Notes under the pieces: generated by a model | The model's input: the letters and a program-made list of their open reading frames with translations, nothing else | What the model was told of the DNA's origin: nothing | The model's database searches: none | Source: Okamejei kenojei | Lineage: Eukaryota | Length of the DNA stretch: 64,000 nt | Assembly (NCBI GenBank): GCA_035221665.1 | Contig: CM069141.1 | Coordinates: 42,036,001 to 42,100,000 of the forward strand | Reading direction: 5' to 3' | Shown: positions 281 to 39,507 of the stretch, piece by piece | How positions within the stretch are numbered: position 1 is the stretch's first letter | Layout of the letters: the number at the start of each line of letters is the position of its first letter | Position numbers and translations under genes: made by a program

Positions 281-1182
281 TTCACTTGCAAGCTACTATA
301 CAACATTAACTATTACTTACCTTTAGGTCAAGATTATTTTAGAGAGAGATCTTACCAAGAAAACCACAGGATGTTCTCCATCATAGCCTGAGGTTTCAAT
401 CCGTCTTGCTTAAAGAACAAAACACATACTGCTGGAGGTCAGGACCATTCTTCCGACGGATGCTGTCTGACCTGCTGAGCTCCTGCAGCAGTTTGTTTTT
501 TGCTCAATATCCAACATCTGCAGTTTCTTGAATCTCTAGCTTGAAGAAGACATTCTCATCAGCATATTCCCCGTCCCACCAGAGGATCAAATAGTCTCAA
601 CCACTGGTGCTCCACTATTAGAGACACCTATTGCACCAACTCTTGCCCGCACTTTGGAAAAGCAGACTATCTGCATGTGTTCCTGCTTCTCACGCATAGG
701 CAGTGACAGATGCAGATTGCTCTGGCTGAGAGGATTTTACAGAACTGGTCAGCGGAGGCAGTGGAGTGACTTCACAACTATTTGTAATTGGTAGACTGCA
801 CTCAGCAATGGACCTGCACAAATACCATGGTTGTTACTGACTGAGTAAGGAAATATGTGGTGGAGTGCATTCTTACCAATTAAACACTCTTGACACTTGA
901 AGATGAACAACAGGACTGCTTTATTCGTGGAAAGTTCAGGTTCATCACTATGAAGTAGTTAATTAATATTCTCCCGGATATTTACACTTGAAATATCTGT
1001 TGAAGCCACCCGTGGCCCCACTAGAATCAACTTGTTAGTTACACAATGGCTTCTTACATCGGTATCACTGTCACATTCCTGGGTTCAAAAAGAAAATCTT
1101 GTGTTTATATGAACAAACATTTCATAAGTGATAGAAGCAGAATGTGGCTAGTCGGCCCATCAAGTCTACTCTGCCATTTAAT

Positions 1183-4100
1183 AGTAAGATTAAACGAGAA
1201 CTTACCAGTTCGAAGTTTGATCGTTATTTTATGAGGAGTAACAATGAGGGATTACGTGAAGAAGCCCCGCCTGGCGCATGATCGGCATACTTCAAAGCAG
1301 TGGCATGAAAAACACAGAACATAATAGCCGGAGTAAGCTAGTAAGGCTCAACATAGATTTAGAACTACCAGATGATCATTTATTTTATGAGGGTCGGGAG
1401 TGGAGGGCACATAATCCCTCATCGTTACTCCTCATAAAATAACGATCAAACTTCAAACTGGTAAGTTCTCATTTAATCTTACTCCTTTACTTCGGAGTCA
1501 CGTGAGTGATTACGTGAAGATTTTGCAGCTCTGTGTTTTTTATGCCGTAGACTCATTCCATAGACACTCTGGCTCAATCAACACAGTAATGAGCAAATAA
1601 CACATTTTTTCCCAAACATTGCTTCAGTTTATGTGATAAGTTTTTTCATTATAAAAGAATGAAAGTAATGCCCTTTCTATTAAAAGGCAAATTTATCACC
1701 AAAATATCAATTGATAATATAATTTGATAATATAAACAAAGCAACAATTACAGAGAACCCAACACACCGTGTCCAATCCTGACACCATGACTGGTTCCTT
1801 GTTACTTTAATATTTATTTTACATCCTCCTACGGCTTTGAATCTTTGCTTGAGCGGCCCATCCTGTGCCATTCCTGTGAATGTATCTACCTCCTTAATGG
1901 AGTAATTTTCCACATCTCAATGTCTAGTTCCACTGAGTCTTAAACATGTTTTAACCATCTAGAATGTAATTATCTAGAACCATCAGTTTTTACTGATACT
2001 TAATGTGGTTTTGTGTGTAATAAGTAGTGCTGTCTCACCACTACAGAGACTTACCTACTTTAACATATTGAGTCAATGCTGACCCACACACAATTTTTGG
2101 CCGACAGGATATGCTTAAATTTTTACCTTGGTTCCAGCTCTTCTTGGTCTGCTTTGTTTGGTAAATTCATAAACATATAAGATAATGTAATCTGTAGCCA
2201 CATGCAATTATATAACATATGCAATGTTTGCACTCTTATGCTGATACTAAAGTCATGAGCATTATTACTTTCAATGTTAATTTTTTGAATCATTGATAGA
2301 ATTGGAGTCCATTGCCTAAGGCAAGTCAGGACTATGCTGATCTCCCAACTTCTGTATTTCAACTTTGGACATTTTACATATATATATTCCTTTTACATAT
2401 CGGGATATTACGGATGAGCCCGATAAATTCTTGGTCAGCAATTTGTCCTAAATAGGACGATAAACACTATGAGCCCGATTATTGGCCCTGTCACTTAGAT
2501 GCTGAGAAAAAATGCAATCCACAAGGAACTCCCATATATCTAATATGATAAAATAACTTTTACTGTCTGCAAAAGACTTCCAATTTCTTATAAAAACAAA
2601 ATATTGTTTTTTAAATGGTTTTTCTCCAAATTGTATGTATAACATTCATTTTGTACATAATTGTTATATTGTTAAAACATTCCTAGACCTCTTTGACCGT
2701 CAAACTGTTATAATGGTCTGGTCAAACCTGCAGATAGCCAAATTCATATCTTCATGCCATGGATGAATTTGTACAACAATAAATTACTGCAACTATGAGT
2801 CTTCATAACTGGTTCAAACATCACTCTCAACGTTAATGAGAACCATGACAGTCCGGTTTGGGCCACCAAAGTGCCCCTGGCAGTGTCCTGCTACATTTTC
2901 ATCAGACACTGCCCTATCAGACAGAATGAGGAACATAAAAGAACATCTTTCCTCATGTAATTTAGCGAAATGCATCCACCGCTCCTGCTCCTGGTTTTCC
3001 CACGAGAAACATTTGAGCAATCGGTGATTTAATCTGGACACAAACAGATTAATGGTAAGTAATCCATATTACTGACAATGTTTTTTTCCCCTGATTTGTT
3101 GTCTGCGACAACATTGTCTCTTCCTTAGAGATAAACAGCTGAACGAAAACATTTTTAGAATACACCACATCTGGTTAGCCAGATAATCACTTGATAATGA
3201 TCTTACTTGACCCATGTGATTGATATATGCCACAGCCGTGGTATTGTTCACCTGATTGGACATGCACACTTTCATAGTAGAACAATAGGCATTTAATCCA
3301 TAAAAAGCTCCTGATACTCCAATAATTAATACAAATGTTTGGAGAAAAAAGTTTCTTAGGACAATCCATTTGCAATTCCCTGGTGTTATTGTCCGTAGTC
3401 CCCTAAACAAGAGACGTATCAAATATTAACTTGATAAGAATAGATATTATACTTATCTTAGCCCAAATAATCACAGAAGCTATCCATCATCCGAGAATAC
3501 TTGCTTCAGTTTGCAATGGCTGCTAAGCTTATATGTTTAAAGCAGCTTGTGGAACCTTTTCTATCCACCACTTTAATTCTGATAAAGTATCCTTTGGTAA
3601 TTACATAGGCCTGTCAAAAGGCCTGCATACTCTTATAATGCTTGTGTTTTCCCTTTTTTGGAGCTGTTTTACTCTTTTATCTAAGCGCCTTCTCGGATGG
3701 AGGGACAAAGTTTGTCAACAAAGCAATGAGACATATTTGTAATATTGACATTTTGTTTCTCGGAAAAAAAAAATTCCCCCATATGGTGCTGAATTACTCC
3801 TAAACCCAGAATAGTAATTTAGGAATGTTTATGAATGCGTAAAACATAGTTTTTATTGGATGGGTCAGGACCCTTGCCTCTCAACAGGCTTGTAATTGCT
3901 GCACTAATTTGCACTGACTCCTGATCAACCTTCCAATTTAAAATGTGATCATGATAAACCATGACCATGTGTCCTCATTAGTGCAAGTGCTGATCTTCTA
4001 TCAGTGCAATTGCTGTTCCAATAATTGTGTGAACAACCTAGAACTGAGTTTAATCCATTAGACAATGTCTTAACTTGCAACAGCTGACCCATCTAATTAA

Positions 4101-5971
4101 TTTCAAGCACCTGTAAATATGATAATAAATTGGTACTAAATACCATCCTTCAAGTCTTATAGTAATGATTAACAATTTGTTAATAACAACTGTTTTTCAG
4201 TGTTGAAGATGTCCATTTTGATAAAATGTTTTCACACTGTAAAAGTGTATTTAAAATGATGTCTTGTATGGCTTTCCCACCACATCATCCTTTTCCCTGG
4301 GGAAATTTATGATACAAATTTGCTTACCTCTTCTTTATTGGAGATATTTCGGGTGCAAACCTAAAATCAATTTTTAGGTTTTCCTATACAGGTAAACCAA
4401 TTCCTTCTACAAATTTTTTGTAGATCCTTTACACATTACAATAAATCAATCCGTTGTTATGCCGTATCATTGATCATAACACACCTGTAATCTCCCACAA
4501 TTGGAGATTTCATCAACTTCTTCTGTAACAAGTTTTTGCACCTCTTCAAATGTACATGAAGCTTTCTCTCCCCAACGATATGGGTTCACATAAGGCTGTG
4601 TTGGATAAATATTTATTTATCATACTCCTGCCTCTGTTTGATCCATTATCAAATCTTTACATTGGATCATAATTTTGCCAAAATTTAATGACCAATAGTC
4701 TTTCCTTTGTAATCAATGTCTTTGATTTATCCTGAGGCAGGTTTACTCCATAAATAATCAGGAGTTTAACATAACTTGATCTGTATTGACCTGCAAATCT
4801 AACGTGCAAAATGGTCCCAATAACAATAACAATATATATATATATATATACCATTGAGCTCCACAAACTAATGGCAATTTGTCTTTTTATTTAAAAAATG
4901 TTTTGGTTATTGCACAATGTTTTACTTGTTTTACATAAGTAGTAATGCCACACACCAGCTTGAAACTCTTTGAAATCGTATTTCCTTATGATTCCATATA
5001 ATTGAGACATGGGTATCATAATCGGATTCACCGTTGGCACCTTAATAAAACATAAATGTTTTATCAATAACTCTGCTGTTTCAACCATAACAGCTTTATG
5101 AAGCTGGTGAGAGACCAATTAATGTTGGTTACCATGGTTTCCTTCCATGGCCTCACTCCTTCATTCAGGTATCGTACTTAGTACACCTGTATGTATATTT
5201 GTGCTGTGGTGGGTACTTATGACCAGCCACCACTATCAATGCACCTTCAGGGTCTGCTTTTTCACTTTCTTTTACTGCCCTGGTACTCCTGAGATTTCCC
5301 TCAAGGAGACTACCTCCAAATCAATCTGAGGTAGATATTCCCACATTGGTAAATCCCACCATATATATTAGTATAAGGAAACCCCTCAGGATCTGTTTTT
5401 GGGAATATTCTGGGCCTTTTTTAAATCCTTTTGGTTGAATTTTTTTTTTTAATTTGGAGTCTTTCTCCATCAATTTATTCTAAGCCATAAAGCTTTTTTG
5501 TCTGGAGGCCTTTTTTATTAGAAATTTTAAATCATGGCCTCTCTAACTTCTCAAAATTTCTCCTCACTGGAGTTTTTCTCATAGCCAAAAGTTTGTGGAG
5601 CAACTAAAGTGTTCCTAACGGTAACTTTAACGGCCACCGGTATCGGAACTGGCTCCGCACTAATCTGCTGTCCCGATCGCAGAGGTTTCCACCGGGACGC
5701 TTTTTTAAACTACGTTTTTTCCCCGGAGTATTTTCTTTTAGCTTTTAAACTCCGTTTTATTTCCACCCGGAGTATTTTTTCTTTTTAACTCCTGGTGGCT
5801 CTATACACCAGCCATGGAGTTTGGATATGCCCTGTAAGTAATTCAACTGTACATACCTGCGGGCCCGTACCTGCGCTCTGCAGCTCTTGCTCTGCCGTCA
5901 GCGTCGACGTAATGCCGATCATGCGCCAGGCGGGGCTTCTTCACGTAGTCACTCACGTGACTCCGAAGTAA
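1183..5971 (-). mobile_element. DIRS1-like tyrosine-recombinase retrotransposon, both ends present, ORFs decayed
   Basis: Inverted termini (tacgtgaagaagccccgcctggcgcatgatcggcat near 1253 and its reverse complement near 5912-5947). Internal complementary region at about 1415-1520. RNase H remnant NNTTAVAYINHMG (ORF 3069-3422). AAT on both flanks (1180-1182, 5972-5974). Confidence 0.9.
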
Positions 5972-6360
5972 AATCATAGCTGATCTATCTTTTCATCTTA
6001 ACTCCATTCTCCTGCCTTCTCCCCATAACCCCTGACATCTGCACTAATCAAGAAACTACCCATCTCTGCTGTATAAATATCCATTGACTTGCCCCACAGC
6101 CTTCTGTGGCAATGAATTCCACAGATTCACCACCCACTGACTAAATAAATTCCTCTGCATCTCCTTCCTAAAGGAACATCCTTTTATTCTGAGGTTATGA
6201 CCTTTGGTCCTAGACTCTCTCACAAGTGGAAACATTCTCTCCACATCAACTCTATCCAGGCCTTTCAATATTCAATGACGTCTAAACTCCAGCGAGTAGA
6301 GGCCCAGTGCCGTCAAACATTCAACATATGTTAACTTACTCATATCTGGGATCATTCTCT
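5972..6360 (-). mobile_element. CR1 LINE 3' fragment (its extreme 3' end, about 1120-1182, is split off by the DIRS insertion)
   Basis: ORF 6056-6268 MKGLDRVDVERMFPLV..TKGH..SQWVVNLWNSLP is the CR1 ORF2 C-terminus. Confidence 0.85.
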
Positions 6361-7564
6361 TGCCATTTAATACCACTCTCCAAACATAGCAGACATAATT
6401 CATCTATGTGGATCCCTACATTTACTTTAATGCCTTGTAGCATCAGTTTTTGGACACTTCCATGCAGACCCTTACAACTAGCTAGTCCATAAAAACTTCC
6501 ACCTCCAAACAGTTTGCACATCAGATTGAATATAATACCCAGACAGCCTGGGAACAAACTTCCAAAGATTCACTGCACTTGGGTGAAGAAGTTCTTTCTC
6601 AAGTTGATCCTGAATGGCCAAACATTTATTTAGACATATCAGCTCTATTTCATAGCAATCCCTCCAACCAGGAAAAATATGAATATAGTTTCTACCCTGT
6701 CAACCTCCTGATAGAGTGTCCATGTTTCAGTGAGCTCAGCTTGATTTCAGAATGTCCAAACTCATCAGAAACAGTTTCTTAACAAAATAGAGACCTTGTC
6801 TAATCTAGGCTGTTAAAATTGATACATTTTGATTAAAAGACAGAGGGAAATAGGAACAAACTATCAGCAGGTTTCGCACAGACAGAAGGAAGCACTTTGT
6901 TAACTAATGACAGGGTGTTAGCTGGACTGGTGTCAGGAACGCACCTTTCCCCAGACGGTGGATGGGGGGTTGGAATGTGGAAGCACATTTCCACAGAGTG
7001 CAGGAGGGGAGTGGGAACTTACGTTATAGAGGACATTTGTAAGACAACACAAGGCCATTATGTATGGGTTTGGTTTTCTATATTTTATAAAATTACATAC
7101 CTGCTGTAGAAGGAAATTTTAGCGTCATACATGTATTCTGGGTCTTGCTTTGCTTGGGGCCCTGCTCAGATAGAAGGGGACACAATTAAAATATCTCCTA
7201 GAAGAGTGATAGTTTGACAAATAATTTGGTTTATTGAAAGCTTAATAGTGCACACTGGGAAACAATCTGAGAGAATTCAAAATGTTTTAGTGATTCACAG
7301 CACCCACAACATTTTTATATTCTCATAACACAATGGTTACTTGTGGAAGCTATATTTTTGAAATAATTCATAATTGATCAATGTCTCTGTAACCTTTCAT
7401 CGTTGTCTTTCCCCAGAGTTATCTTTAACCTTATGTTCCCTGCTATTTACAAAACCACTCTCTCATTTGTCTAACAACCCCAATGTTTATTTTACCTAAA
7501 CTGGCTGTGCTGTGGAACATAAACACCATGATAAATTTATTTATTGCCTCACTAACATCCTTAA

Positions 7565-7815
7565 GTTTTGTTTAGTTTAGTTTAGAGATGCAGCTCGGAA
7601 ACAGACCCTTCAGCCCACCAAGTCCGCACCGACAAGCAATCCCCGCAAATTAACACTATCCTACACAATCTTGGGACAATTTTACACATACACCAAGCCA
7701 ATTAACCGACGTACCTGTACGTCTTTAGAGTGTGGGAGGAAACCGAAGATCTCGGAGAAAATCCCCCGGTCACGGGGAGAACGTACAAACTACGTCCAGA
7801 AAGCACCTATAGTCT
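7565..7815 (-). mobile_element. tRNA-derived SINE (HE1-like), partial
   Basis: (gttta)n tail; body similar to 11703-12025. Confidence 0.7.
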
Positions 7816-8014
7816 TGGGTTAAATACATTACAAACTACTCTTCTTCCATATAATTTTCAAAATTTCCAACATGACCCACGAAAGTGACAATGCAATGAA
7901 TATTTACTACATTGGTTCCTGGAATGGCAACTATGATGTATGAGGAGATATTGCGTAGACCAAGACTGTATTCTCTCAACATTAGAAAAATGAAACATGC
8001 AAAATTCATGTAGG

Positions 8015-8345
8015 TCTCAATAGACAATAGGTGCAGGAGTAGGCCATTCGGTCCTTCAAGTCAGCACCGCCATTCAATGTGATCATGGCTGATCATCCAC
8101 AATCAGTACCCCGTTCCTGCCTTCTCCCCATATCCCCTACTTCCGCTATCTTCAAGAGCTTTATCTAGCTCTCTCTTGAAAGTATCCAGAGAACCGGCCT
8201 ACACCGCCCTCTAAGGCAGAGAATTCTACAGACTCACAACTCTCTGTGTGAAAAAGTGTTCCTCATCTCCATTCTAAATGGCTTACCCGTTATTCTTAAA
8301 CTGTGGCCCCTGGTTCTGGACTCCCCCAACATCGGGAACATATTG
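8015..8345 (-). mobile_element. CR1 LINE 3' end
   Basis: caatagacaatag tail and 3'UTR matching 22728-22975 and 25300-25600 in reverse. Confidence 0.85.
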
Positions 8346-9814
8346 GGGGAGATACACCACCTGCCCATTTACTTCTTACCTTCTCAATATCTAGGAAATA
8401 AAACATTCCGTCCAGCAGAAGCAGAGATGCCTAAGTGCCTCTTCTAATTCAGTCCATTCCAATCAAGACTCACAAAGTGATCGCCTCTACAGTAGGAAAA
8501 CTAAACTCAGGAATCGATAACAACTTTGCAGAATCAGTCCATGGAGATGTCCATCAGTTTTCATTTGCCTGTCGCTTTAAATCCCCTTTTCCACTCTGTC
8601 ATTGGCCCCGTTCACTGCCTCAGTGAGGCCCAACAAAACATCAGGCAGTTCATCACTTCTTCCAACTGGGCACATCACAGCTGCAAGATTTAACATTGAA
8701 TTCAACTATTTCAGCCATTTCAACCCAATTTCTTGGAAAATGAATATCAAGGATTCATTTCTTCTCATCTCAGTCTTGAGTGGGTCCTTTTGTTGCAAAT
8801 GTGTCCCTGATTCTGGATGCCCAGTTATGAAGCAGTATTCTGCTGTCCTGTGCTTCTCTCTTCTGCCCTGAAGCCTGGAATGAATTTAAAAGCTAATAGA
8901 GGTGGGTATGATATCAGATACATAGTTATGAGACCAGGGTTTGAGCTGAATAAGTAACAATGATGCAGCGTATGGAAAATCCCATGAACAACTTCCCACA
9001 AGTTAATCCTTGCCGTGAAATGAGGCATGAAGGGGTGACTGAATGGGACATCACCACCACACCCCTCAGTAACTGCACAACCATTTAGCCTTAGCTGCCC
9101 AGTCTATGTGCTGATATCCACCATTTAGCTTTAAAACATAAAATTCAGTATTAACGCTTCTAGCTTACCAGGAAGGTAAAATATGGAGAAGGTTCATAGA
9201 TGGAGGGAGATTATGACCTTGTATAAATTACTGCAGAAGACTATACTAAAATCTGCCACAAATCTGCACACCCTGCTCTTTTAAACTGAGTATACAGGGA
9301 AATACATTGCATTGTCACTAATTCAGAAATGTAGAAGTTTACACCAGAATTAATCTGTGAAGTTGCTTCTTATGTATTTTCTGTTCTTCCCACGTCTTGA
9401 AAATGCCATCTCCAACTGGGTACCACCTCAGCTCAGTGTTGAATGAAACATCAAACTCAGTCCCTCTTCTACTTCAGAAGTGTGGAAGAGAGGCTTTGGT
9501 GTCCCTTAGAGCAGCGTTTTCCTGCTGTCCTTGTTATATTTACCATATTTGCATTTATAGTTATTAATTTCACTGCTCTTTGTGGGACTGCTCACAAAAT
9601 GGTCATCATAGTTGTCCATAAAGAAAAACAGGGATTAATAGGCTGCTAGAGATTTAGGAAATTGACAAAGTACATATGACGGAAATGTCAGGTTTCTTTC
9701 CACTTGAGATGCATTTTCAACCCATCTGATCGAGTGATTCTTTACAAATCAATTCCATATAAATGAGTGTATTTTCTCAATTTAACTTGAAAATGTGCAC
9801 TCTGTAGTACAGAC

Positions 9815-10640
9815 TGTGCTGGGCGGCACAGTAGGGCAGCATTCCAGCGCTGGAGACCTGGGTACAATCCTGACTGTGAGTGCTGTCTGTAAAGGGCCTG
9901 TCCCAGCAGCATGCAACTCCATGCAATGAGCGCGACCTAACGTGGTCGCTTGAGCCGTCCGGCGTCGCGGGGCCGGTCCCACTTCGATCGCCGGAGCCGT
10001 GCGGAATTGTGCGGAGTTTGTCCCGACATCGCGCGGGGCTCCGAAAAACTGACCATGTTCAAAAATTCCGCACGGCAACGGCTTGTCGGCTCGCAGTCAT
10101 TACACACCGCCTCGACGTCGTGCCTCCGTGACCCTCTCTGTAGGCGCCTCCGTGACCCTCTCTGTGTGTGGCTCCATGACCCTCTCTGTGTGTGCCTCTG
10201 TGCCCCTTTCTGTGTGTCCCTCTTTGTCCTGGCGAACTTACCTTTCAGACTTCGCTCCAAATTCGCCTCACTTCCCGCCGCGTTGCGTCACTCACCCCAC
10301 CTCCGCGTGGCCCCCGCTGCTGGGTTGGTCGCGCTCTTCGCATGCAGGCGCATGCTGTTGGGAACGGCCCTGTACAGGGATCACTCGACCTCCGTGCGGT
10401 CCCCGCTGCCGGTTTGGTCGCGCTCACCGCATGGAGTCGGATGCTGGTAGGACAGGCCCTTTAGGGGTTTGTATGTTCTCCCCATGACCTGAGTGAGTTT
10501 TCTATTGGTGCTCCGGTTTCCACCAACACTTCAAAGATGTGCAGGTTTGTAGAGGAATTGGCTTAGATAACGTTGTAAATAGTCCCTAGTATGTGTGGAT
10601 CGAGCTCGTGTGTGGGTATCTCTGGTCAGTTTCGAACCAT
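9815..10640 (+). mobile_element. tRNA-derived SINE interrupted by a Harbinger MITE
   Basis: Head ggcggcacagtagggcagc with B-box-like gggtacaatcc; body resumes at 10464 (ggggtttgtatgttctcccc). Confidence 0.7.
9893..10460. mobile_element. Non-autonomous PIF/Harbinger element
   Basis: TIRs AGGGCCTGTCC / GGACAGGCCCT flanked by TAA and TTA. CpG-rich interior with short tandem repeats (ctccgtgaccctctctgt). Confidence 0.85.
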
Positions 10641-11456
10641 CTGGGACAAACCTAATCCTTAATGGGAAACAGAATATTATGCACACCACTTGCACGACCA
10701 TGGGCTTACTTTTGTTTCTTGTGGTATTCTGCACAGATATCATGTTTTTTGCACAGTCTTTCTGTTTTTGCTGTGTTGGATAATTTAAATATAATTTAAA
10801 TCCTATGCGTTAGTTGAGCCTATGCCTCTGACACTGATGCAAACGAGATTGTCATTGCAACTGTGCCACACGGTACTTGTGGATAAGAGAATAAACTCAA
10901 ATTGATTTGACTTGATTAGAACTGAGAAAGAGAGAATGCAAATTAGTCTCAATGGCAGAGAAGGTGGAGGGGGAAGACATTGGGTAGAACAAAGGGAAAC
11001 AAGAACTGAAGATGCTGGAATCTTAAGCAAAACATAAAGTGTTGGAGGAATTCAACTTCAGGCAGCATCAGTGAAAGGAATGAAAGTGACGGATGGAAGC
11101 CTTCTTCAGAGAAGGGGAATGTCTGTATTGTCGTGAACTGGCGCAGCCATTAAATGGACAGTTAAGCTCATTTGCCTATTTCAAGTGTTGAAAATATGAA
11201 GCCTGTTTCATCTGGGCAATTGGCTAATGCTGAGTAGGCCGGAATAAACAAATTAAAGAAAAATAATGATTAAAATATTATGGGTTGGAAAAATAGCAAC
11301 CACAAATTGCCAGTCCTGATACAATAGAAAAAAAAAGAGCAAGTTATCTGAAGTTGATGAATTCAATATTTATTACTACAAACAAAACATGCTCAGACAA
11401 AACATGAAGTGTTCTTACTTGAGGTTATGCCGGGCCTCATAATAGTGCAGAAGGCC

Positions 11457-11479
11457 ACACACACACACACACACACACA
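11457..11479. repeat. (CA)n microsatellite
   Basis: Read directly. Confidence 0.95.
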
Positions 11480-11702
11480 GAGGTCAAAGTGTGAGCAGAA
11501 TGGTGATTTTAAATGGCAGACAATCGGAAGCTCAGGGCTACCCCTGCTGACTGAGTTCAGGTGTTCTGCAAATTGATTACCCGATCTGTGTTTGGTCTCT
11601 ACAATGTAGTGGAGGCCACATTGTAAACATCAAAAGCAACAGACTAGATTGGAAGAAGTGTAAGTGAACTGCTGTCCCCTCTGAATGGTTGGAAGGGATA
11701 AG

Positions 11703-12025
11703 GTTTTTAGTTTAGTTTGGTTGAGCGATACAGCACGGAAAGCGGCCCTTCAGCCCACCGAGTCTGCATCGACCAGCGATCCCAGCACATTCACACTACC
11801 CGACACACACAGTAGGGACAGATTTACATATAAACCAAGCCAACTAACCTACAAACCTGTACGTCTTTGGAGTGTGGGAGGAAAACGAAGATTTTGGGAA
11901 AAATCCCATGCAGGTGATGGTGAGAAAGTACAAACTCCGCACCGACAAGCACACCATATCAGGGTCTAATCCCGGTCTGTGGCACTGTAAGGCAGTAGCT
12001 CTACCACTACGCCACCATGCTGCAC
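11703..12025 (-). mobile_element. tRNA-derived SINE (HE1-like), near full length
   Basis: (ttagt)n tail at left; tRNA-like head (reverse complement gcatggtggcgtagtggtagag) at right. Confidence 0.75.
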
Positions 12026-12574
12026 TAAGGTGAAATACAGCAACAGGCCATTCGGTCCACAATGTCCATGCCGAAACTAATCTTCTCTCCTCCTCTACCT
12101 GCATGTGATCCATATCCCTAATTCACTGCATATCCACACGTCTATCTCAAAACCTCTTTAACACCACAATCATATCTGCCTCCATCACCACCCTTGTAGC
12201 ATGTTCCAGGCACCTTCCTCTGCAAATAAAGAGCTTGCCCTGCAAATCTCCATGCATCTTTGTCCCGCTCTCCTTAAAGCTGTGCCCTCTAGTCTTTAAC
12301 AAAAGATGAGGTGTTGATCCTCCTGTATATGTTGGGCCTCATTGTAGTAATGCAGGGGGCTACAGACAGAACGGTTGGAGTAAGAATAGGATGCCAAAGT
12401 AATCAGAAGTCTTACCCCCCTGAGGAATATGTACTGACTGTCTATCATATCTATGCCTCTCATAATTTTATGTACCTATATCAAATCTCCCCTCAATCTC
12501 TGACACTGAAGACAAAACAATTTAATAAAGAACAGTTGTGGGTGCATGGGAAAGTGCCCAATGGGAAGTAGAGA

Positions 12575-12822
12575 AGAAGACCCAAAGAGTTTAGTAACTC
12601 AACAGGTCAGGAAGCATACTCTGGAGAATATGAATATGGATAGGTGACATTTCAGGTCGGAATCCTTCAGACCGAAGAAGGGTCCCATCAGTCTGAAGAA
12701 CGGTCCTGACCCCAAACTTCACTTACCCATATTCATCAGAGATGGTGCTTGAACTGCTGAGTTAATCCAGCACTTTGTGTCTTTTTTTTTTGTACACCAG
12801 CATCTGCAGTTTCTTGTTTCTA
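12575..12822. mobile_element. Palindromic Penelope-end-derived element
   Basis: Two inverted, decayed copies of the ctgaagaagggtc..gaaa..gatgctg..ctgagtt terminus. Confidence 0.6.
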
Positions 12823-15773
12823 TAATGGGAAATAGAATTCAGGAGAGTGGGAGAGTGGACCAGAGTGTTGAGAAGGGAACGATGTTCAAAATGCTGAAAG
12901 GCAAAGGGAGGGAATGTGTGATTGGTGGTGGAATTTTGTTGGAACTAGTGAAAATTGCATAGGATGATCTGTTGAGTGCACAAATTGGTGGGGCCAAATG
13001 CGAAGACTAGGGATGATCTGTTCTTTCCAAAATCATTATTCCATGGCTACATTACTCCAGCATATTACTGACATTCCAATTCCCCTTGTTCCACTCATTT
13101 CTCTCCCCAACCTTCTCTGCGGCAAAGGCAAACTTGCTTTCTCTTTCTCAGTTCTGATAAAGGGACTTCAAAACAGTTGTTTTTGCAAAGTTCAGCACTG
13201 ACAGTGGGTTCCCTGCAGCTTCGTGGGATAGGTATTTCAGTCAATATATTCAGCTGATCTTTGATGTGCTATGTTTATGCCATCTTGTGGACGTTGAAGG
13301 AACAGTAGCCACCCGGTGTACAGAGTCTACTGGCTGAAGGTACAGTGGGCTTGATGCTGTTCTTATTTAGACTGATGAAGGATGGACCTGAGTTATACAA
13401 AGTGGCAGAACGCTGGTGAATTAACCTTAGATGCTTTACTTGAACTCTAGAGGTTGTAGTTACCCATGCTAAAGTTGCAGCAAGTAAGCTCATTTTCCCA
13501 GTTTATATGTTGTGGAAGGTGCTCATTTTCTCGATAATAAGATGGTGACATAAAGTACTCATGAAATGGTCAAGAGAAGCAAAGGGAGACAAGGAAGGAT
13601 TTTCAAAACACATTGTAGTTACTCACAGTTGAGTACAATTTCTCCATGTACCAGCAAAGACATTAGAAATGCATAACTTCAACCACAAAAATAGCCAAAA
13701 ATGACAGAGTGGTTATAATTTTCATCATTACGCTACACAGGGAGGTGATCAGGAGCATGATGTGGGTACAGTAGGAAGTACAGTACAGTAGAAAGAGTAG
13801 TCGCTAGATCGCACTGGCAGTTTTATAGCCTTGGTGCACCATGATAACCTGAGAGCAGAAATACACCAGTGGCACTATGACATTGTGAGTGTGACAACTA
13901 GATTCAAACAGCTGCTTGAAGCAATATGGCTGAAGAGCTCTATCGATCTGATGGGGGAATAGTTTCTCTTGTACCCATTTTCCAGATCCAGTCTGAACAG
14001 TATGGGGAAAACCATTCATACTCACAGACTAGCACAGCACAGAATGCTTCTAAAAATAAACCTTCAAAACCAACTGAGTGCCATAAATAATACAACAGAA
14101 ATACAAACTCAATCGCATAAAAAATTACAGGAATTTTTAATGATATTAATCACCACAAATTGTAATGTATTCTGTGTCTTACATGGTTTTAACCATGTAT
14201 TGTAACTTCTGGCAATACTCTCACTCCACAGGCGGTTAATTCAATTTGCAGTACACCTGCAAGCTGTCTTTAATAGTAAATGCTACTTCTTTTTTAGCTT
14301 TTGATTATTTAGGAGATAACTCACACCGACAACTATTCAGGGTGTTCTATGTATAAGCTCTTCAAAAGTTGCTCCATGTGTCTAAGCCCACTTTACCTAT
14401 AAACTAAAAATAATAACCATGACATTTTGAGTGCCACAAATTTCTTTATCAATTGTCCTTCCCGCCATATATAGGCATGTTTGTTCTGCAAACATTAGCA
14501 CAACAAAGATGCTTTGATTGAGAAAAGTTTGAGTTTATCAACACACTAAAAGTGCGAGAAGTTAATGAGTACTTCTATACATTTTTTTATATTTACACTT
14601 GCAAATGTCTGCTGAAGCCAGCCTCGGTTACATCGGAGCCATCATATTAGTTATGCAATGACCTGTTACTTTGGGTACACTGTCGCATAGCAGAAATCCA
14701 GAAGAAAAGTTCATGTTTACACAAACATATTTAGAATTTATTTCCTAGTTATGAGCCATCATTTGAAAGGTTCAGGCTGACATGGGTTCAGCATTTAGAA
14801 ATAAGTATTTTCAGTAAACACATATGACCAATCTTCAGTTCACTAACGCAATGCCTTTTGATTGGGACAGCAGCCAGTACATGGAGTCTCTCTTGCAATC
14901 CATGCTGTTCTTATTCACAAAAGTGAAGTTTGAGCCTGAGTGATACAAAGATGCCAGAACACTGGTGAATGACCTTTGATGTTTTGCTTGATTGGTTGCT
15001 GTGCGTGGTGTGATGATGAGAAAGCATTGAACTATTACAGAATGAATGAAACACTTTTACGATGAAAGATGTTCATTTTCTGTTTGTTTACCTATGAATC
15101 AGAAACAAAAATATTAATGATCTTCGATTGCACTCTCTGACTGAAGTTCGATACATAAACAAATTAAAGTGGAATGCAGAAAATCAAAAAACTCCTTCCA
15201 TGTAAATTGCATATTGAAATGTGTAGAACTGGACACTCAGTACTCCCCAGAAATGAATGTTGGTGACAAAATTAATGAACCAAAGGAAAAGCTACGGTTA
15301 TTATTAGAGGATAGATGCTGGAGATGTTGGATGGATCCACGAGGTGAAGAGGTAGCTCCTTCAGATTCCCCAACATCATATGTATATTAGCAGGAGTGAT
15401 AGGGAGGTGGAGGGTAGTGGGATGGGAAGAGAAATGCTTTGATTCAGCTCGTCACTGACTGTTTTCCGAATTCCATATTGTCATGTTTCAGAACTCTGTC
15501 TCCACCACTTTAATTAACATTCACCACTTTCTTATCTCTTCCATTCTGAGAGTTTTGATCTAATTATTGTTTTTGTCAGCTTCCACAGGGACTCTTTCCA
15601 TTAGAGCCTTCTAGTAAGATTTTGGGTCAGGAAAGTTATAATTATCTCCTGGGGGATTGTAAATTATCAGGAGGAAACATTCTGGAATGAGGTTCTATGA
15701 TTTTGAGCATCTTCATGCTTGATCCTAATGTAGTTACTGGGCTGAAGACCCAGGAAAATTCAAGATACAGTAA

Positions 15774-15961
15774 TTATTTGACAGTCACTTTGCAATGGAA
15801 GACAAAATTTCTCAGTTGAAAACAATGCTCTGCTGAAATCTCCTCTTCTGACAAATCAGCTACGGATGCAATGGTCAGAATTGAATTTAAATAAAACCAT
15901 CTTTGGTTCTCCCCATTCTCTGCGATTCTTTCATTCCTCTTCCATCTTTCTGCCTCCAGGA
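15774..15961 (-). CDS. Candidate cytoplasmic/last exon of the TIM gene (FLEAERWKRNERIAENGENQ..., 62 aa)
   Basis: Acceptor gttctcag|TC, open in phase 1 to TAA at 15776-15774; minus-strand AATAAA at 14737-14742. The acceptor is weak, and an equally open alternative exists at 16524-16633. Confidence 0.27.
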
Positions 15962-17330
15962 CTGAGAACTATATAATTATGACAACCATTTTGATCTTCA
16001 TGATGAAAGAGTTGAAACAAGAGGTTCTCTGTGTGAGAGCATGTAAATAGAATCCTTCAAATGGGAATATATTTGTGGATACAAACGCCTTTGGTCAAGT
16101 TAATTCATGATTTATGAAGTTTACACTGATTGTTCAAGCTTTACTTCAACCCAGCAGAGAAAATATTGGAATTTATGACTGCAGCTCCCGCATTCACCAT
16201 TTCAGAAATAAATTAATCAAATCGAATAGATACAACTCAGCACAACTGGCATATTTACCAGGTTCACACCCTCTACCTGAGAACCTCACCAATGTTGCAG
16301 GATTTGTCTTCTTAGTTAGTTACTTTAAATGTAGTAAGTAATTCTGTATGACCTCCCTTCTCATGGACAACGTAATTTAATACGAATCACAGTGCTTACA
16401 AAAAAATGTCATCCATCTCCATTTGTCCTCAGGTAAGATGGTTTGTCATGGACACTCAACTCTGACCAGTAAGAATCGTCCACCATTTCACAAAAATGGG
16501 AACATGAGGGGTCACGTCATCTTTCAAGCATGTTTCACCAAATTTATATCATAACCCGAAGCATAAAATGTTCCCAATATTGATTTGGATTTTTCAGTAA
16601 CCGAAACATCTTCATGAATTCCAATATTAATACCTGAAAATTCCGAACTTCTATTAGACTTTCCATGTGGAAGTAATTCCTATATTCTATTCTGAAAGAT
16701 CCAGTTTCAGTTTTAGCAATGCCATTTAACCCTAAACTCCCAATTCAGTAGAAAATATTTATTTCAATATCCATCAATTTACGTTAACACCATGAAAACA
16801 TTTGTGCAGGGTCTTAGAATTGCTAAAATTACATAAACTTTCACTTAGAAATAGTTTCTTCCCACATTTAATCCAATATCATGTCCTTCTCCCCAATTTA
16901 TCTTGCCTCATTAACTTGCCAACCTCTATTACATACCTGTTCTCCATGTCTTTAAAATCATTTCTGCACCCCATCCCTGACCTCTCCTCATTGTAACCCC
17001 GCATCATCCTCGAGCTCTGCCTCCTAGCATTAGTCTTTCATTCTTCTAACTCTCCTTATGTGCTGTCATCCCTCATCTCCACCATCAAAGGCAGGGGCCT
17101 TTGGCCAATATAGCTCCAGCCTTATGGATGCTTTGAAATCCCCATCTATTTGGTTACATCTTTCCTATTTCTTCAAAATATGTATTAAAATAAATTTTAA
17201 TTGCTATTCATTCTCCTCCCCTGCATTAACTTGCACTCAGGGTCACATGTTCCAAGTTAACAATAAGTTGCTCAAGTATCTCAACAAAGTGTTTTGAGTA
17301 AAATGCAGGTTCCTAGACAGTGACACTTAC

Positions 17331-17439
17331 ATTTCCATTGACAAAGGAGCAGAGTGATTGCAAGAAAACAGATGAAAACTGAGACACGGGCTGCCCAGGC
17401 AAGATACGAAATCAGGATGTTTACCAACTCATTGGGAAC
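17331..17439 (-). CDS. TIM transmembrane exon (VPNELVNILISYLAWAARVSVFICFLAITLLLCQWK)
   Basis: Acceptor tatctatttcag|GTT, donor AAAT|GTAAGT. 109 nt, phase 0 to 1, hydrophobic helix followed by WK. Confidence 0.8.
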
Positions 17440-17519
17440 CTGAAATAGATACACAAAATTAGAGAACAAGATTTTTTCACTATTTTAAATCTAAAATGCA
17501 TGAACCACAACCATTGACC

Positions 17520-18160
17520 ATTACAAGGTCATAAGGCCATTCTGCCCCTGAAGTCTACTACACCAATCAATTATGACTGAATCATAAGTCTCCCTCTGAA
17601 CCCTATTCTCCTGCCTTCTCCCCATAACTTCTGACATCTGTACTAATCAAAAATGTATCTGCCTTAAAACTATCCACTGACTTGGCCTCCACAGTCTTCT
17701 GTGGCAAAGAATTCCACAGATTCACCACCCTTTGGCAAAATTAATTTATTCTAATCTCCTTCCTAAAAGAACATCCTTTAATTCTGTGGCTATGACCTCT
17801 AGTCCTAGACTCTCCCACTCAATGGAAACATCCTCTCCACATCCACTCTATTGAAGCCTTTCACTATTCTCTATGTTTCAATGAGGTCACCCCTCATTCT
17901 TCTAAACTCCAGCGAGTACAGGCCCAGTGCTGACAAACAGTCATCATAGATTAACCTATTCATTCCTGGGATCATTCTCATAAACCTCCTCTGGACCCTC
18001 TCCAGAGCCAGCACATCCTTCCTCAGATATGGTGCCCAACATTACTCACAATATTCTAAATGTGTCTTTGCAAATAAAGCCTCAGCATTACATCCCTGTT
18101 TTTGTATACACGTCCTCTTGAAATAAATGCTAGCATTGAGTTTGCTTTCTTTACTACGAA
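17520..18160 (-). mobile_element. CR1 LINE 3' fragment
   Basis: Reverse-complement similarity to 28300-28900. Confidence 0.8.
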
Positions 18161-19860
18161 TTATTGTAAGTAAAGTGCAATTGGAACCAAACAAACTGAT
18201 TCAAGTGTACTTGCATAACAGAAGAACATAACAATAAGAGCAGTCCCTCAAGTCATCTCTGGTGTTCAATAAGACCATGACTGACTGAGCTGTAGCCACA
18301 ACTCTTCCCTCTCTGTGTGATGCTCACTGGCTAATCCACCATCCTTTCATTTCATTTGAGTCTATTGTTCTTCCTAGAGCAAGCTTGAAAGTATTCAAAG
18401 ACCCAGGCTCCAAGATTTTCTGCAGTAGAAATCTAGTCTTAAATCTTCTGAAACTACAGTTCTTGGATCCAATATCTTCCCCAGGGTGAACTACTGTTGT
18501 CATGTACCCTGTTAGACTCCCTCAGATCAACTTTAATTCTTCTGAACTCCAGTGAATACAGGCCCTATGTGTTCAATCGTTCCTGTTTCAGGTGAGCGAG
18601 CCTTTACTGAACCAGGCATGAACAACACTTTCATTTGAGTTGGCAATTGCCTGAAATTGCTTATTAGCAGAGGTAACTCTGAATTGACTGCTAAGGTAAG
18701 GCATGTGGAAATTATGATGAGGTTACCTAATTCTCATTTTCAATTTGTGCTGTGAATGTTTGCCAAATGATAGAATATATGATATAGGACAGTACAGCCT
18801 GCGAACAGGCCCTTCAGCTCACAATATCGATGACAATTATGGTGCCAAGTTAAATTCCTCTGCCTGCATGTGATCTGTATCCCTCCATTCCTTGCATATC
18901 CATGTGCCCATCCAAAATCTTCTCAAACGTCACTATTTTAGCAGCTTCCACCACCACACCTGGCAACCTCTTCCATGCGCTCACCACTCTCCATGTAAAA
19001 GAATTGTCCCGCACATCTCCTTTAAACTTTCCCCTTCAGAAGTTTAAACAACGGTCCCTTTTCTCTGACATTTCTACCTTGGGGAAAAGGATCCAACTGC
19101 TATCCCATCTATGACCCTCTTAATGTTATATACTCTATCAGGTCCCAGAGAAGACCCAGAGGTCCTAGATAAACAATCCGAGTTTGTCTAACCTCTCCTT
19201 ATAGCTAATATTTAATAGCTGGAGCTAAAATGTTTTCTGACAATGTAATGGGACACTTGTTCAAACACATTCCGAGAAGATCATACATCTAGTATTTGGA
19301 GGAAAGTTGGAGGTAGTGGGAACCCTCGGACAAGCACTGCTTTCAACACCTCCAGTTTCCACATACCAGCAGCTTTTCAACCATGCAGTCATGTCCTCCA
19401 AAACATAATGCACAACATTTAGTGAAACACATCCCTCAGGATTAGAGAAGGTGGCACAGAATGGTAGCAGTCTCGGGAAAGTACTGGAGAAAGACATTCT
19501 CCTGCATGGCTAAAGGCCCTGCACAAAATCAGTATGGTTCATGATGAGACGGGGCATCACTGAGCATATACGGTTGGGTTGGAGGGATCAATGATGAAAG
19601 TACTTAGACATTTAATCACACTTGGTTCTTCCCACTTCTCCCTCAATGCATAATTTCCTCTGACACACAAGCTGTAGATGATGTGAATCCACACTTCTCA
19701 CACTGTCCCAGCTCAGCACATAACCCATAACTTAATCCCATATTCATTTTGAACATTCAGAGCCCAACCTAGAACCTGCTGAGCTGGAGCAGACCACAGT
19801 GAAAATGAGCAATAATATCGTAATAAAAAGGAAATTAATAATAAAAAAGAAATTGCTCAC

Positions 19861-19934
19861 AGGTGAAAGAGGAGTTGAATCAAAATCTCTCAGTGTAGTC
19901 GAGGGTGAGGTAATATAAGGTGTAAGTTTCATAT
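19861..19934 (-). CDS. TIM stalk/mucin-like exon B (DMKLTPYITSPSTTLRDFDSTPLSP)
   Basis: Acceptor ttgtttctttcag|, donor CCT|GTGAGC. 74 nt, S/T/P-rich. Phase 1 in matches the IgV donor and phase 0 out matches the TM exon; the other two frames are closed. Confidence 0.75.
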
Positions 19935-20713: not shown

Positions 20714-22089
20714 GTAGACAAAAATGTTGGAGAAACTCAGTGGTTGAGGCAGCATCTATGGAGTGAAGGACTAGGCAACGTTTCGGGTCGAAACCCTTCT
20801 TCAGACTGATGTGTGGGTGGGGGGGGGGGGGGGCAGGAAGAAGAAAGGAAGAGGGGAGCCAGTAGGCTGAGGGAGAGATGAGAAGGGGAGGAGAAAGTAA
20901 GGACTACCTGAAATTAGAGAAGTCAATGTTCATACCGCTGGGGTGCAAACTGCCCAAGCGAAATATGAGGTGCTGCTCCTCCAATTTATGGTGGTCCTCA
21001 CTCTGGCCATGGAGGAGGCCCAGGACAGAAAGCTCGGATTCGGAATGGGAGGGGGAGTTGAAGTGTTGAGCCACAGGGAGATCAGGTTGGTTATTGCGAA
21101 CCGAGCGGAGGTGTTAGGTGAAGCGATCACCAAGCCTACGTTTGGTCTCACCGATGTAGAGCAGCTGACATCTAGAGCAGCGGATGCAATAGATGAGTTT
21201 GAAGGAGGTGCAGGTGAACCTCTGCCACACCTGGAAAGACTGCTTGGGTCCTTGAATGGAGTCAAGGGGGGAGGTAAAGCGACAAGTGTAGCATTTCTTG
21301 CGGTTGCAAGGGAAAGTGCCCGGAGAGTGGGTGGTTCGGGTGGGAAGGGACGAATAGACCAGGTAGTTACGGAGTTAGCGGTCTGTGCGGAAAGCAGACA
21401 TGGGAAGAGATGGGAAGATGTGGCGAGTGGTGGGGTCACGTTGGAGATGGCGAAAATGATGGAGGATTATTTGTTGTACCTGACGGCTGGTTGGGTGGAA
21501 GATGAGGACAAGGGGGACTCTGCCGTTGTTACGAGTGGGGGGATGGGGAGTGAGAGCAGAGTCAAGGGATATAGAAGAGACCCTGGTGAGAGCCTCATCT
21601 ATAGTAGAAGAGGGGAACCCCCGTTCCCTGAAGAATGAGGACATCTCCGATGCCCTGGTGTGGAACACCTCATCCTGGATGCAGATGCGGCGTAGACGGT
21701 GGAATTGGGAGTAGGGGATAGAGTCCTTACAGGAAGCAGTGTGGGAAGAAGTGTAGTACAGATAGCCATGGGAGTCAGTGGGTTTATAGTGGATGTCGGT
21801 CAGTAGTCTATCACCTGCAATGGAGATAATGAGGTCAAGAAATGGTAGGGAAATGTCAGAAATGGTCCAGGTGTATTTGAGTGCCGTATGGAAGTTAGTG
21901 GTGAAATGGATGAACTCAGTGAGTTGTGTGCGGGTGCAGGTAGCACCAATGCAGTGGTCGATGTAGCGGAGGTAGAGTTCGGGAATAGGGCCACGGTACG
22001 TCTCGAACAAGGATTGTTCGACGTACCCTACAAAGAGGCAGGCATAGCTAGGGCACATGTGCATGCCCATAGCTACGCCTTGTATTTGG
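20714..22089 (-). mobile_element. Penelope-like element, 5'-truncated (RT C-half, GIY-YIG endonuclease, terminal repeat)
   Basis: ORF 21375-22109 GVAMG..PSYACLFVGYVE..YLRYID..LPFLDL..YKPTD. Flanked by aattcaag at 20706-20713 and 22090-22097 inside a decayed Rex-type LINE. Confidence 0.92.
20777..20804 (-). ncRNA. Minimal hammerhead ribozyme core, sense to TIM pre-mRNA
   Basis: Minus strand reads CUGAAGA-A-GGGUUUCGACCC-GAAAC-GUU. Confidence 0.5.
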
Positions 22090-22727
22090 AATTCAAGCTC
22101 CTTACACAACCACCAAGGTCTAATCCCTGCACGTTCCTGACCACAACCCTACCTCAGCATTGGACTACAATGGGCTTTGCGCTGCAAAGGTTGCACTTGA
22201 TACTTTGGTTTGAATTATCATGGTGTGATTTATCTGGAATAACTGCTAACTTATTAAATAGTTATTTGTTGCGTTGTATTTAGTGTGCTTGTAAAGCAGC
22301 AGTAAATAACAATTTCATTGTTCCAGTACCAATACATATGACAATTAAACGCTCTTGACTCTTGAGTACATTTGGCTTTGGTCTTTCTTTTCTGAAAAAA
22401 TATACTTGCCATTCAAATGGTGCAATAAAGAATAACTAAACTTATTTCCAAAATTAAGTCATAAGAAATTGCTGATGCTAGAGGGAAATGGACACCTAAA
22501 GAAGGGTCTCCACCCAAAACTGAAGAATGGTCCTGACCCCAAATCTCACCTGTTCATTCCCCTTCCCAGATGCTGCCCGATGAGCTGCTAAACAACTGAT
22601 TTTTTGCTGTGGGGTTTTCATGATGACAGATTTGCCATACAAGGAGAGGTTGAGTGGATTAAACCTGTAAATTTAAGAATTGGGGATCATGACAGAAACC
22701 TCCTTGTGGTGATCCCTGGAAATGGAG

Positions 22728-38796: not shown

Positions 38797-39154
38797 CCTC
38801 CAAAACCTCCAAAACTAGGAGATTCAAATTCACTTTCACATCATTAAACGGTCCAGGGATCTCCACACGGCAGCAATACCATCCACCGTCTTCTTTCCGG
38901 AGGTGATTTAACGTGAGCGACACGTCTCCTTGCTCAATGTTACCACCAAGCTGATATTTCTCGGATCCTGCTGAAGTTACTGTTTCTCCGTTTGTTTTAG
39001 TCAGCACAGCTCCACAGCCAAAGACAGGACACTCTCCCCGACCCCAGCACATCGCAGTTTTGCCATACTTTCGGACAGAGTAGTGGCACGGCAGAGTGGA
39101 TCGCCTGTCCCGGGTATCCTCGCACTGGTGATCCGGTGGCAAAGGCTACTCGAC
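38797..39154 (-). CDS. TIM-family receptor, exon 2, IgV domain (one +1 frameshift near 39098 as assembled)
   Basis: Acceptor tttcag|GT and donor GAGG|GTAAGC. Translation VRGYPGQAI/TLPCHYS..MCWGRGECPVFGCG..GDVSLTL..DGGWYCCRVEIPGPFNDVK has the six-Cys TIM IgV signature. Orthology within the family cannot be resolved here. Confidence 0.93.
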
Positions 39155-39458: not shown

Positions 39459-39507
39459 CTAAAAGAGAGATGACGGTCAAATAATCCACGCGGCTAATCA
39501 CAACCAT
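39459..39507 (-). CDS. TIM-family (HAVCR1/TIMD4-like) receptor, exon 1, leader MVVISRVDYLTVISLL
   Basis: ATG at 39507-39505 in strong Kozak context (gccacaATGG). 49 nt ending at a phase-1 donor TTAG|GTACGT, 304 nt upstream of the IgV exon acceptor. Confidence 0.8.

What the first reader, a model, noticed from the sequence alone, without database searches (positions are those of the whole stretch)
17331..17439. TIM-family receptor with an intramembrane Arg: possible adaptor-coupled activating TIM
Seen: the TM exon reads LVNILISYLAWAA-R-VSVFICFLAITLLLC-QWK, with Arg (CGT, 17388-17386) inside the hydrophobic run. Established: a TM Arg is how GPVI, OSCAR, FcalphaRI, LILRA and NKp46 recruit FcRgamma or CD3zeta, whereas mammalian TIM-1 and TIM-3 signal through tail tyrosines. 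Inference: this gene may be an ITAM-adaptor-coupled TIM class in cartilaginous fish, with a very short stalk (about 25 aa). A similar Arg may already exist in teleost TIM-like proteins; I could not check this.
Basis: partly seen in the sequence, partly recalled or inferred. Interest (0 to 1): 0.72.

Follow-up and report, generated by a model that had tools for sequence, protein, structure and literature searches.

The report
Arginine-bearing paired TIM receptors of fishes
This skate-like genome has two TIM immune-receptor genes with an arginine in the membrane segment and a short tail without tyrosine, beside a near-twin with an ordinary tyrosine tail; arginine forms recur in sharks, rays, gar, bony fish and frogs, and they likely signal through the FcR-gamma adaptor, which is untested.

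Summary
The Arg (CGT, 17388-17386) is real and lies inside every best-scoring membrane window. The gene (A) is one of three tandem HAVCR1-like TIM genes. A and B have the Arg membrane exon and an 11-residue tail without Tyr. C has an uncharged membrane segment and an EDNIY tail. B is a chimera: C-like ectodomain, A-like membrane and tail. The Arg exon is conserved in 11 named shark and ray species (65% shark-ray identity, against 57% for IgV), while IgV domains group by species, not by type (AU p 1.8e-55), as paired receptors kept alike by gene conversion do. Arg forms also occur in gar, teleosts and frogs; none of those I could name is from an amniote. FcR-gamma and CD3-zeta membrane exons are in the genome. 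Best reading: an FcR-gamma-coupled activating TIM (about 0.68); binding is untested. Corrections: the class is not limited to cartilaginous fish, the short stalk is not a class trait, and A's IgV exon has a one-base frameshift in this assembly that two DNA runs lack. Ten paper searches found no description.

The parts
39459..39507 (-). Gene A signal-peptide exon (49 nt, ATG at 39507, phase-1 donor)
   Evidence: the 304-nt intron is skipped GT..AG in a contig of run X14, whose alleles are B/C-like
38797..39154 (-). Gene A TIM-type IgV exon: six Cys, FG loop PFND instead of WFND, 9-nt duplication at its 3' end
   Evidence: PDB TIM-4 E 1.8e-30; Pfam V-set E 3.2e-12; coordinates
39098..39099 (-). 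One extra C that shifts the IgV frame in this assembly
   Evidence: absent in paralogs B and C and left out in all covering contigs of DNA runs X1 (depth 19.5 of 19.5) and X3 (98.7 of 98.7)
19861..19934 (-). Gene A Ser/Thr/Pro-rich stalk exon (phase 1 to 0), similar to the membrane-proximal stalk of ray Arg-type TIMs
   Evidence: (weak tblastn hits E 0.004-0.013 with P0035, P0040); its junction to the IgV exon is predicted, not seen in reads
17331..17439 (-). Transmembrane exon with Arg at 17388-17386
15057..15091 (-). Tail exon, 11 residues, no Tyr, stop TAA
   Evidence: 100% match to the Leucoraja P0032 tail over 10 residues; X22 contig 14919-15087 with 0 differences and 27 further letters whose depth fits the membrane exon (the joint is inferred by arithmetic)
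620..18336 (-). Duplicated block (3' half of gene A and the following intergenic DNA) that recurs as the 3' half of gene B and the B-C spacer
   Evidence: blastn pieces of 86-95% identity to L010, L011 and L013

Best explanation
The exon is the membrane segment of a HAVCR1-like TIM receptor that has an arginine near the outer end of the helix and no tyrosine in its short tail, and it likely signals by pairing that arginine with the aspartates of an FcR-gamma (or CD3-zeta) dimer, as the predicted activating member of a receptor pair. Shown: three tandem TIM genes; A and B carry the Arg exon and short tail; C carries an uncharged segment and an EDNIY tail; B joins a C-like ectodomain to an A-like membrane and tail; IgV domains group by species across sharks and rays while the Arg exon stays conserved. 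Inferred: unequal crossover made B, and gene conversion keeps the ectodomains alike, so both types would see the same ligand (probably phosphatidylserine on dying cells or enveloped particles); the Arg type would then trigger ITAM signalling while the ENIY type signals through its own tail. Gene A is probably intact in the species; the frameshift is likely an assembly error or a private null allele.
For: Arg inside 6 of 6 best windows; one continuous predicted helix across the exon in the Leucoraja relative, pLDDT about 60-79 (alignment of only 4 sequences). Chondrichthyan proteins: 19 charged (18 Arg, 1 His), 13 uncharged, 7 without a membrane segment, of 39 entries including isoforms; none of the 19 has the ENIY motif, 12 of the 13 uncharged do. 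Over 233 distinct membrane segments, 1 of 29 with an N-terminal Arg has an ENIY-like motif against 102 of 204 without (Fisher p 3.6e-7, not corrected for kinship). Shark-ray identity: Arg segment 65%, IgV 57%, uncharged segment 36% (5 x 5 pairs each). IgV tree of 47 chosen rows: 18 label changes, shuffled mean 16.0; one clade of Arg-type IgVs rejected, p-AU 1.8e-55 (14 against 13 rows). B is 95.6-97.1% identical to C over about 10 kb around signal, IgV and first mucin exons and 86-95% identical to A from the membrane exon on. FcR-gamma (E 7e-12) and CD3-zeta (E 6e-12) membrane exons with the Asp are in the genome. Arg to next charged residue: median 17.5 in 26 chosen Arg types; adaptor Asp to next basic residue 16. 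[quoted passage not shown]
Against: No binding, expression-by-cell-type or signalling data. In the 19-residue windows the Arg sits only 3-4 residues in, where it could simply reach the lipid head groups. PMC1440944 shows most adaptor pairings tolerate wholesale change of the helix, so the strong conservation of the whole segment is not demanded by FcR-gamma and may reflect another partner (although Fc-alpha-RI fell to 11% there). Gene A is frameshifted in this assembly, no second mucin exon was found in its 19-kb intron, and no contig joins its IgV to the stalk: the X18 contig reads on into the intron and the spliced X14 contig is B/C-like at 12 of 13 sites. Gene C has no ITIM, so the pair is not shown to be activating against inhibitory. 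The FG loop is PFND or LFND rather than WFND, so lipid binding is not assured. One caecilian protein has both Arg and EDNIY (P0164), and two relatives have His for Arg (P0120, P0259).
Confidence: 0.68

Rival explanations
1. The Arg is an interface residue or serves homo- or hetero-dimer packing, and the protein is a non-signalling tether or decoy, like TIM-4, that binds ligand and needs no adaptor.
For: Arg only 3-4 residues into the best 19-residue windows; the whole C-terminal half of the helix is conserved, with several invariant columns besides Arg; TIM-4 lacks the tail tyrosine motif (PMC7326247, passages).
Against: Arg and loss of the ENIY motif go together across sharks, rays, gar, teleosts and frogs; uncharged TIM segments do not need such a residue; 15 hydrophobic residues after the Arg are short for a bilayer on their own (general knowledge).
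Confidence: 0.2
2. The Arg recruits a different adaptor (DAP10 or DAP12) or another membrane partner.
For: Conservation beyond the Arg; DAP10 and rodent DAP12 accept Arg from type II receptors (PMC1440944). DAP10 and DAP12 were not searched for in this genome.
Against: For type I proteins the same paper reports Arg with FcR-gamma and central Lys with DAP12.
Confidence: 0.1
3. Gene A itself is a pseudogene or null allele, and gene B is the working Arg-type copy in this lineage. This concerns the copy, not the class, and can hold together with the best explanation.
For: One-base insertion and early stop in the assembly; only one stalk exon found; no spliced IgV transcript of A seen; the Leucoraja and Amblyraja Arg-type models are B-like.
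Against: All covering contigs of two DNA runs from two studies lack the extra base; splice sites, membrane exon and tail are intact; an A-specific tail contig in X22 appears spliced to the membrane exon; short-stalk isoforms exist in relatives (P0093, P0116).
Confidence: 0.2

Closest known systems
TIM-1/HAVCR1 and TIM-3/HAVCR2 (TIM family)
   Same: Six-Cys IgV, mucin stalk, single membrane segment; FND of the lipid-binding loop kept; MED7 on the same contig about 2 Mb away; gene C has the E(D/E)NIY motif described for TIM-1 (PMC4913284, passages).
   Different: Genes A and B have a membrane Arg and an 11-residue tail without Tyr; W of WFND is P or L.
TIM-4/TIMD4
   Same: Best structural sequence hit of the IgV; tail without the tyrosine motif (PMC7326247).
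   Different: TIM-4 proteins in my sample have long mucin stalks, uncharged membrane segments and 35-45-residue tails.
FcR-gamma-coupled receptors such as Fc-alpha-RI (GPVI, OSCAR, LILRA, NKp46 recalled, not seen in a call)
   Same: [quoted passage not shown]
   Different: Those have unrelated C2-type Ig ectodomains (recalled); here the ectodomain is a TIM IgV with mucin stalk, and coupling is untested.
Paired receptors kept alike by gene conversion (CEACAM1/CEACAM3 and Xenopus ceacam pairs; SIGLEC5/14 and KIR recalled)
   Same: Linked genes with near-identical ligand-binding domains and different signalling ends (PMC5112662, abstract).
   Different: The partner here carries an ENIY motif, not an ITIM; the activating end is a membrane Arg, not a tail ITAM.
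Fish NITR and DICP families (skate MDIR recalled, not seen in a call)
   Same: Fish Ig-superfamily clusters with charged-membrane activating forms (bioRxiv 2021.06.11.448072, passages).
   Different: Different ectodomain family; the passages seen do not mention TIM or HAVCR.

Membership tests
TIM family | IgV domain with six conserved Cys | tested here: met
   six Cys in the translation; 15 TIM chains rank first in the PDB search
TIM family | WFND phosphatidylserine-binding loop | tested here: inconclusive
   PFND in A and B, LFND in C; FND kept; LFND and PFND are common in other TIM-like hits (95 and 27 against 189 WFND); binding not assayed
TIM family | Mucin-like stalk | tested here: met
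   one short Ser/Thr/Pro exon in A, two in B and C
TIM family | Locus near MED7 | tested here: met
   MED7 at C11:44.12 Mb, cluster at C11:41.95-42.08 Mb; loose linkage only, ITK not searched; human linkage is recalled
TIM-1/TIM-3 type | Cytoplasmic E(D/E)NIY tyrosine motif | tested here: not met
   absent in A and B, present in C
FcR-gamma/CD3-zeta-coupled receptors | [quoted passage not shown] | tested here: met
   rule from PMC1440944
FcR-gamma/CD3-zeta-coupled receptors | Short tail without signalling motif | tested here: met
   11 residues, no Tyr
FcR-gamma/CD3-zeta-coupled receptors | Adaptor with membrane Asp encoded in the genome | tested here: met
   membrane exons at C24:20.998 Mb and C12:5.921 Mb; their ITAM exons were not found in the DNA fetched
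FcR-gamma/CD3-zeta-coupled receptors | Arg-dependent physical assembly with the adaptor | not testable with these tools
   needs bench work; no complex model was obtained
Paired receptors | Linked genes with near-identical ectodomains | tested here: met
   B and C differ at 6 of 291 nt in the IgV, A and B at 18 of 291
Paired receptors | Inhibitory partner with an ITIM | tested here: not met
   the C tail does not fit the ITIM consensus quoted; it has the TIM ENIY motif
Paired receptors | Shared ligand and expression on overlapping immune cells | not testable with these tools
   only contig-level runs were available

The most novel reading that the evidence does not exclude
In vertebrates other than amniotes the TIM family works as a paired-receptor system: an FcR-gamma-coupled activating TIM, at least as old as the shark-ray split and present in gar, teleosts and frogs, is kept matched to a tyrosine-tailed TIM by repeated gene conversion, plausibly as a counter to pathogens that exploit TIM lipid binding, and amniotes lost it.
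Probability: 0.45. Interest if true: 0.78.

Novelty: new variant of a known kind. Interest (0 to 1): 0.62.

Why it matters
TIM proteins are described from mammals and birds as receptors that signal through a tail tyrosine or act without one. An adaptor-coupled form would give the family a second signalling mode and a paired layout of the sort usually read as a mark of pathogen pressure. It makes a direct test possible in common models, since carp relatives, cichlids and frogs carry Arg forms. It also warns that fish and frog genes auto-named HAVCR1, HAVCR2 or TIMD4-like may be activating receptors rather than TIM-3-like checkpoints.

Tried and rejected
Complex prediction of the membrane segment with an FcR-gamma dimer was not available: no verdict. 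No RNA holder was listed for the IgV stretch. The second read-laying was swamped by repeats and its joint table was cut, so the stalk-to-membrane junction could not be read; no contig showed an IgV-to-stalk junction. Homology of the Arg segment between elasmobranchs and bony vertebrates: with the Arg masked, an elasmobranch profile scored 22 bony-vertebrate Arg segments no higher than 194 other segments (median 1.3 against 2.8 bits), so a single origin is not supported by sequence, although an unanchored alignment lines the Arg up. A second stalk exon in gene A was sought by splice scan, blastn and tblastn and not found. Other TIM exons were sought in 100 kb upstream and 110 kb downstream of the cluster and not found. 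A candidate tail exon at 7161-7100 was dropped: the tail stops at 15057 and that stretch lies in duplicated intergenic DNA. 'Very short stalk as a class trait' and 'confined to cartilaginous fish' were rejected. No holocephalan protein was named among the listed hits; only the best 120-150 of each search were shown, so this is not absence. Ten paper searches listed no paper on a membrane-charged TIM; I judged most from titles and abstract starts; subscription journals are largely missing from the library and no supplements were read.

Full report
Observation. A six-frame motif scan found one Ig exon upstream; it matches TIM-4, TIM-1 and TIM-3 structures first (E 1.8e-30). Exon phases chain correctly: signal 39507-39459, IgV 39154-38797, stalk 19934-19861, membrane 17439-17331, tail 15091-15057. 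The tail has 11 residues and no Tyr, and matches the Leucoraja RefSeq model P0032. The closest named proteins are from skates (80% IgV identity).

The IgV exon is 358 nt; one extra C at 39098/39099 shifts the frame and stops translation early. Both paralogs lack it. In two DNA runs from two studies every covering contig leaves it out (depth 19.5 of 19.5 and 98.7 of 98.7); in X3 that depth is about three times the single-copy depth, so it accounts for all three genes. Contigs drop rare variants and the window differs from both runs at other sites, so this is an assembly error or a private allele; I cannot tell which.

Is the Arg in the membrane? For gene A the best 19-, 21- and 23-residue windows on two scales all include it (6 of 6; crude scales, values recalled). 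An AlphaFold model of P0032 from four sequences has one helix across the exon (residues 201-244, pLDDT about 60-79); it says nothing about the bilayer. In 26 Arg-type proteins that I chose, the next charged residue lies a median 17.5 residues after the Arg (range 7-21). [quoted passage not shown] The genome has FcR-gamma and CD3-zeta membrane exons with the Asp; I did not find their ITAM exons in the DNA fetched.

The cluster. A genome search gave three close IgV copies on C11 and two distant hits elsewhere. Gene B (C11:42.0325-42.0057 Mb) has two mucin exons, the Arg exon and the same short tail; gene C (41.9776-41.9541 Mb) has two mucin exons, an uncharged membrane exon and a tail ending in the EDNIY motif, which PMC4913284 (passages) gives as the TIM-1 phosphorylation site. 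B is 95.6-97.1% identical to C over about 10 kb around its first exons, 88-96% further on, and 86-95% identical to A from just before the membrane exon; the switch lies between C11:42010223 and 42007612, in the intron after the second mucin exon. The A-B and B-C spacers are also homologous (86-91%). Inference: unequal crossover between an ancestral A and C made B, and later conversion kept the B and C ectodomains closer than the rest of the duplicated block. B and C differ at 6 of 291 IgV bases, 5 codons changed and 1 silent, too few for a selection test. MED7 lies about 2 Mb away.

Relatives. Of 39 chondrichthyan entries (isoforms included), 19 have a charged membrane segment (18 Arg, 1 His), 13 are uncharged and 7 have none; no charged one has the ENIY motif, 12 of 13 uncharged ones do. 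Arg forms come from 11 named species of rays, skates and sharks, Heptranchias included; 8 of them also gave the uncharged type. Whale shark, basking shark, Heterodontus and Chiloscyllium plagiosum gave only the uncharged type in the listed hits. The Arg segment is more conserved between sharks and rays (65%) than the IgV (57%) or the uncharged segment (36%) (five by five pairs). On an IgV tree of 47 rows that I chose, the type label changes 18 times against 16.0 for shuffles, with well-supported mixed pairs in Scyliorhinus, Chiloscyllium, gar and genes B/C (bootstrap not fully settled); one clade of Arg-type IgVs is rejected (p-AU 1.8e-55, 14 against 13 rows, quick tree). This is the pattern described for paired receptors adjusted by gene conversion (PMC5112662, abstract).

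Outside cartilaginous fish. The first two searches gave 2 charged of 102 membrane-bearing other entries (35 had none). The representative search gave 15 of 78 (42 had none), all named afterwards: Arg forms in seven frog entries, a cichlid, Albula and gar, a His form in a frog, and four Lys or Glu forms. A third search added Arapaima and five cyprinid genera or species entries. None of the Arg forms that I could name is from an amniote; the searches list only their best hits, so this is suggestive only. Over 233 distinct segments, 1 of 29 with an N-terminal Arg has an ENIY-like motif against 102 of 204 without (kin are not independent, and the window rule misses some, such as gar P0213). With the Arg masked, the elasmobranch profile does not favour bony-vertebrate Arg segments, so several origins remain possible.

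Expression. No run is on record as RNA. A contig of X14 splices signal to IgV but is B/C-like at 12 of 13 sites; a contig of X18 with A's 3' end reads on into the intron. In X22 a contig matches A's tail and 3' end with no difference (B is 89% identical there) and has 27 further letters; its depth accounts exactly for the 0.50 seen in the membrane-exon bin, which points to a membrane-to-tail splice, though the joint row was cut from the table. The join of IgV to the Arg exon rests on NCBI gene models of relatives, whose transcript support I did not check.

Mechanism and odds. Most likely (0.68) the Arg pairs with FcR-gamma or CD3-zeta and gives ITAM signalling on ligand binding, beside a twin that signals through its own tyrosine. 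Rivals: a non-signalling tether with an interface Arg (0.2), or another partner (0.1). Separately, gene A may be a dead copy (0.2) with B the working one. The twin has no ITIM; the ENIY motif is shared by TIM-1 and by TIM-3, which lacks classical inhibitory motifs (PMC7326247, passages), so 'activating against inhibitory' is not shown. Lipid binding is inferred from the retained FND.

Novelty. Ten searches of the held library listed no paper on a membrane-charged TIM. PMC4913284 has no hit for 'charged' or 'arginine'; PMC4536121 and bioRxiv 2021.06.11.448072 (passages) do not treat TIM genes in the passages seen. Fish TIM papers in subscription journals, and supplements, were not seen and could already note the residue. 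The scan's own notes hold no look-alike by sequence or place; one note (e1-9571334) describes an Arg gain in a shark receptor pair of an unnamed family, which I did not check. Verdict: a real, conserved variant of the TIM family with a well-precedented but untested mechanism; interest 0.62.

Noticed in passing
G000:C11:42032555-42005684 (L008-L011): Gene B is a chimera of a C-like ectodomain and an A-like membrane and tail; the Leucoraja and Amblyraja Arg-type models have the same make-up, so the event predates these skates' split.
   Followed up: yes
P0290 (Protopterus annectens): Lungfish TIM-like protein with a Lys near the middle of the membrane segment and a 9-residue tail, the DAP12-type layout rather than the FcR-gamma type.
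   Followed up: no
P0003, P0005, P0006, P0008 and others: Frog proteins of about 460 residues, named 'polymeric immunoglobulin receptor-like', are strings of TIM-type IgV domains with no membrane segment after the last domain, perhaps secreted multivalent TIMs.
   Followed up: no
G000:C36:14844547-14844831 (L004, L033, L034): Distant TIM-like IgV (45% identity, FG loop without FND) on another contig; a candidate uncharged membrane exon occurs twice, 5 kb apart (L034:2721 and 7742).
   Followed up: partly
window 38797-38814: A 9-nt tandem duplication at the end of gene A's IgV exon adds three residues relative to B and C.
   Followed up: partly
window 7100-7161 (- strand): Exon-like open stretch with good splice sites and several Tyr, in intergenic DNA that is duplicated between B and C (91% identity in L013); no role found.
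   Followed up: partly
window 29033-31051 (- strand): 672-residue open frame with endonuclease and reverse-transcriptase domains (LINE) inside the IgV-stalk intron of gene A; further retroelement fragments at 21378-22148 and 55945-56595.
   Followed up: no
window 14838-14933 (- strand): Matches the alternative tail of Leucoraja isoform X2 (P0033, 91%); open in A but frameshifted in B, so probably not a conserved coding exon.
   Followed up: partly
P0120 (Scyliorhinus torazame), P0259 (Aquarana catesbeiana): His stands in place of the membrane Arg in a shark and a frog protein with short tails.
   Followed up: no
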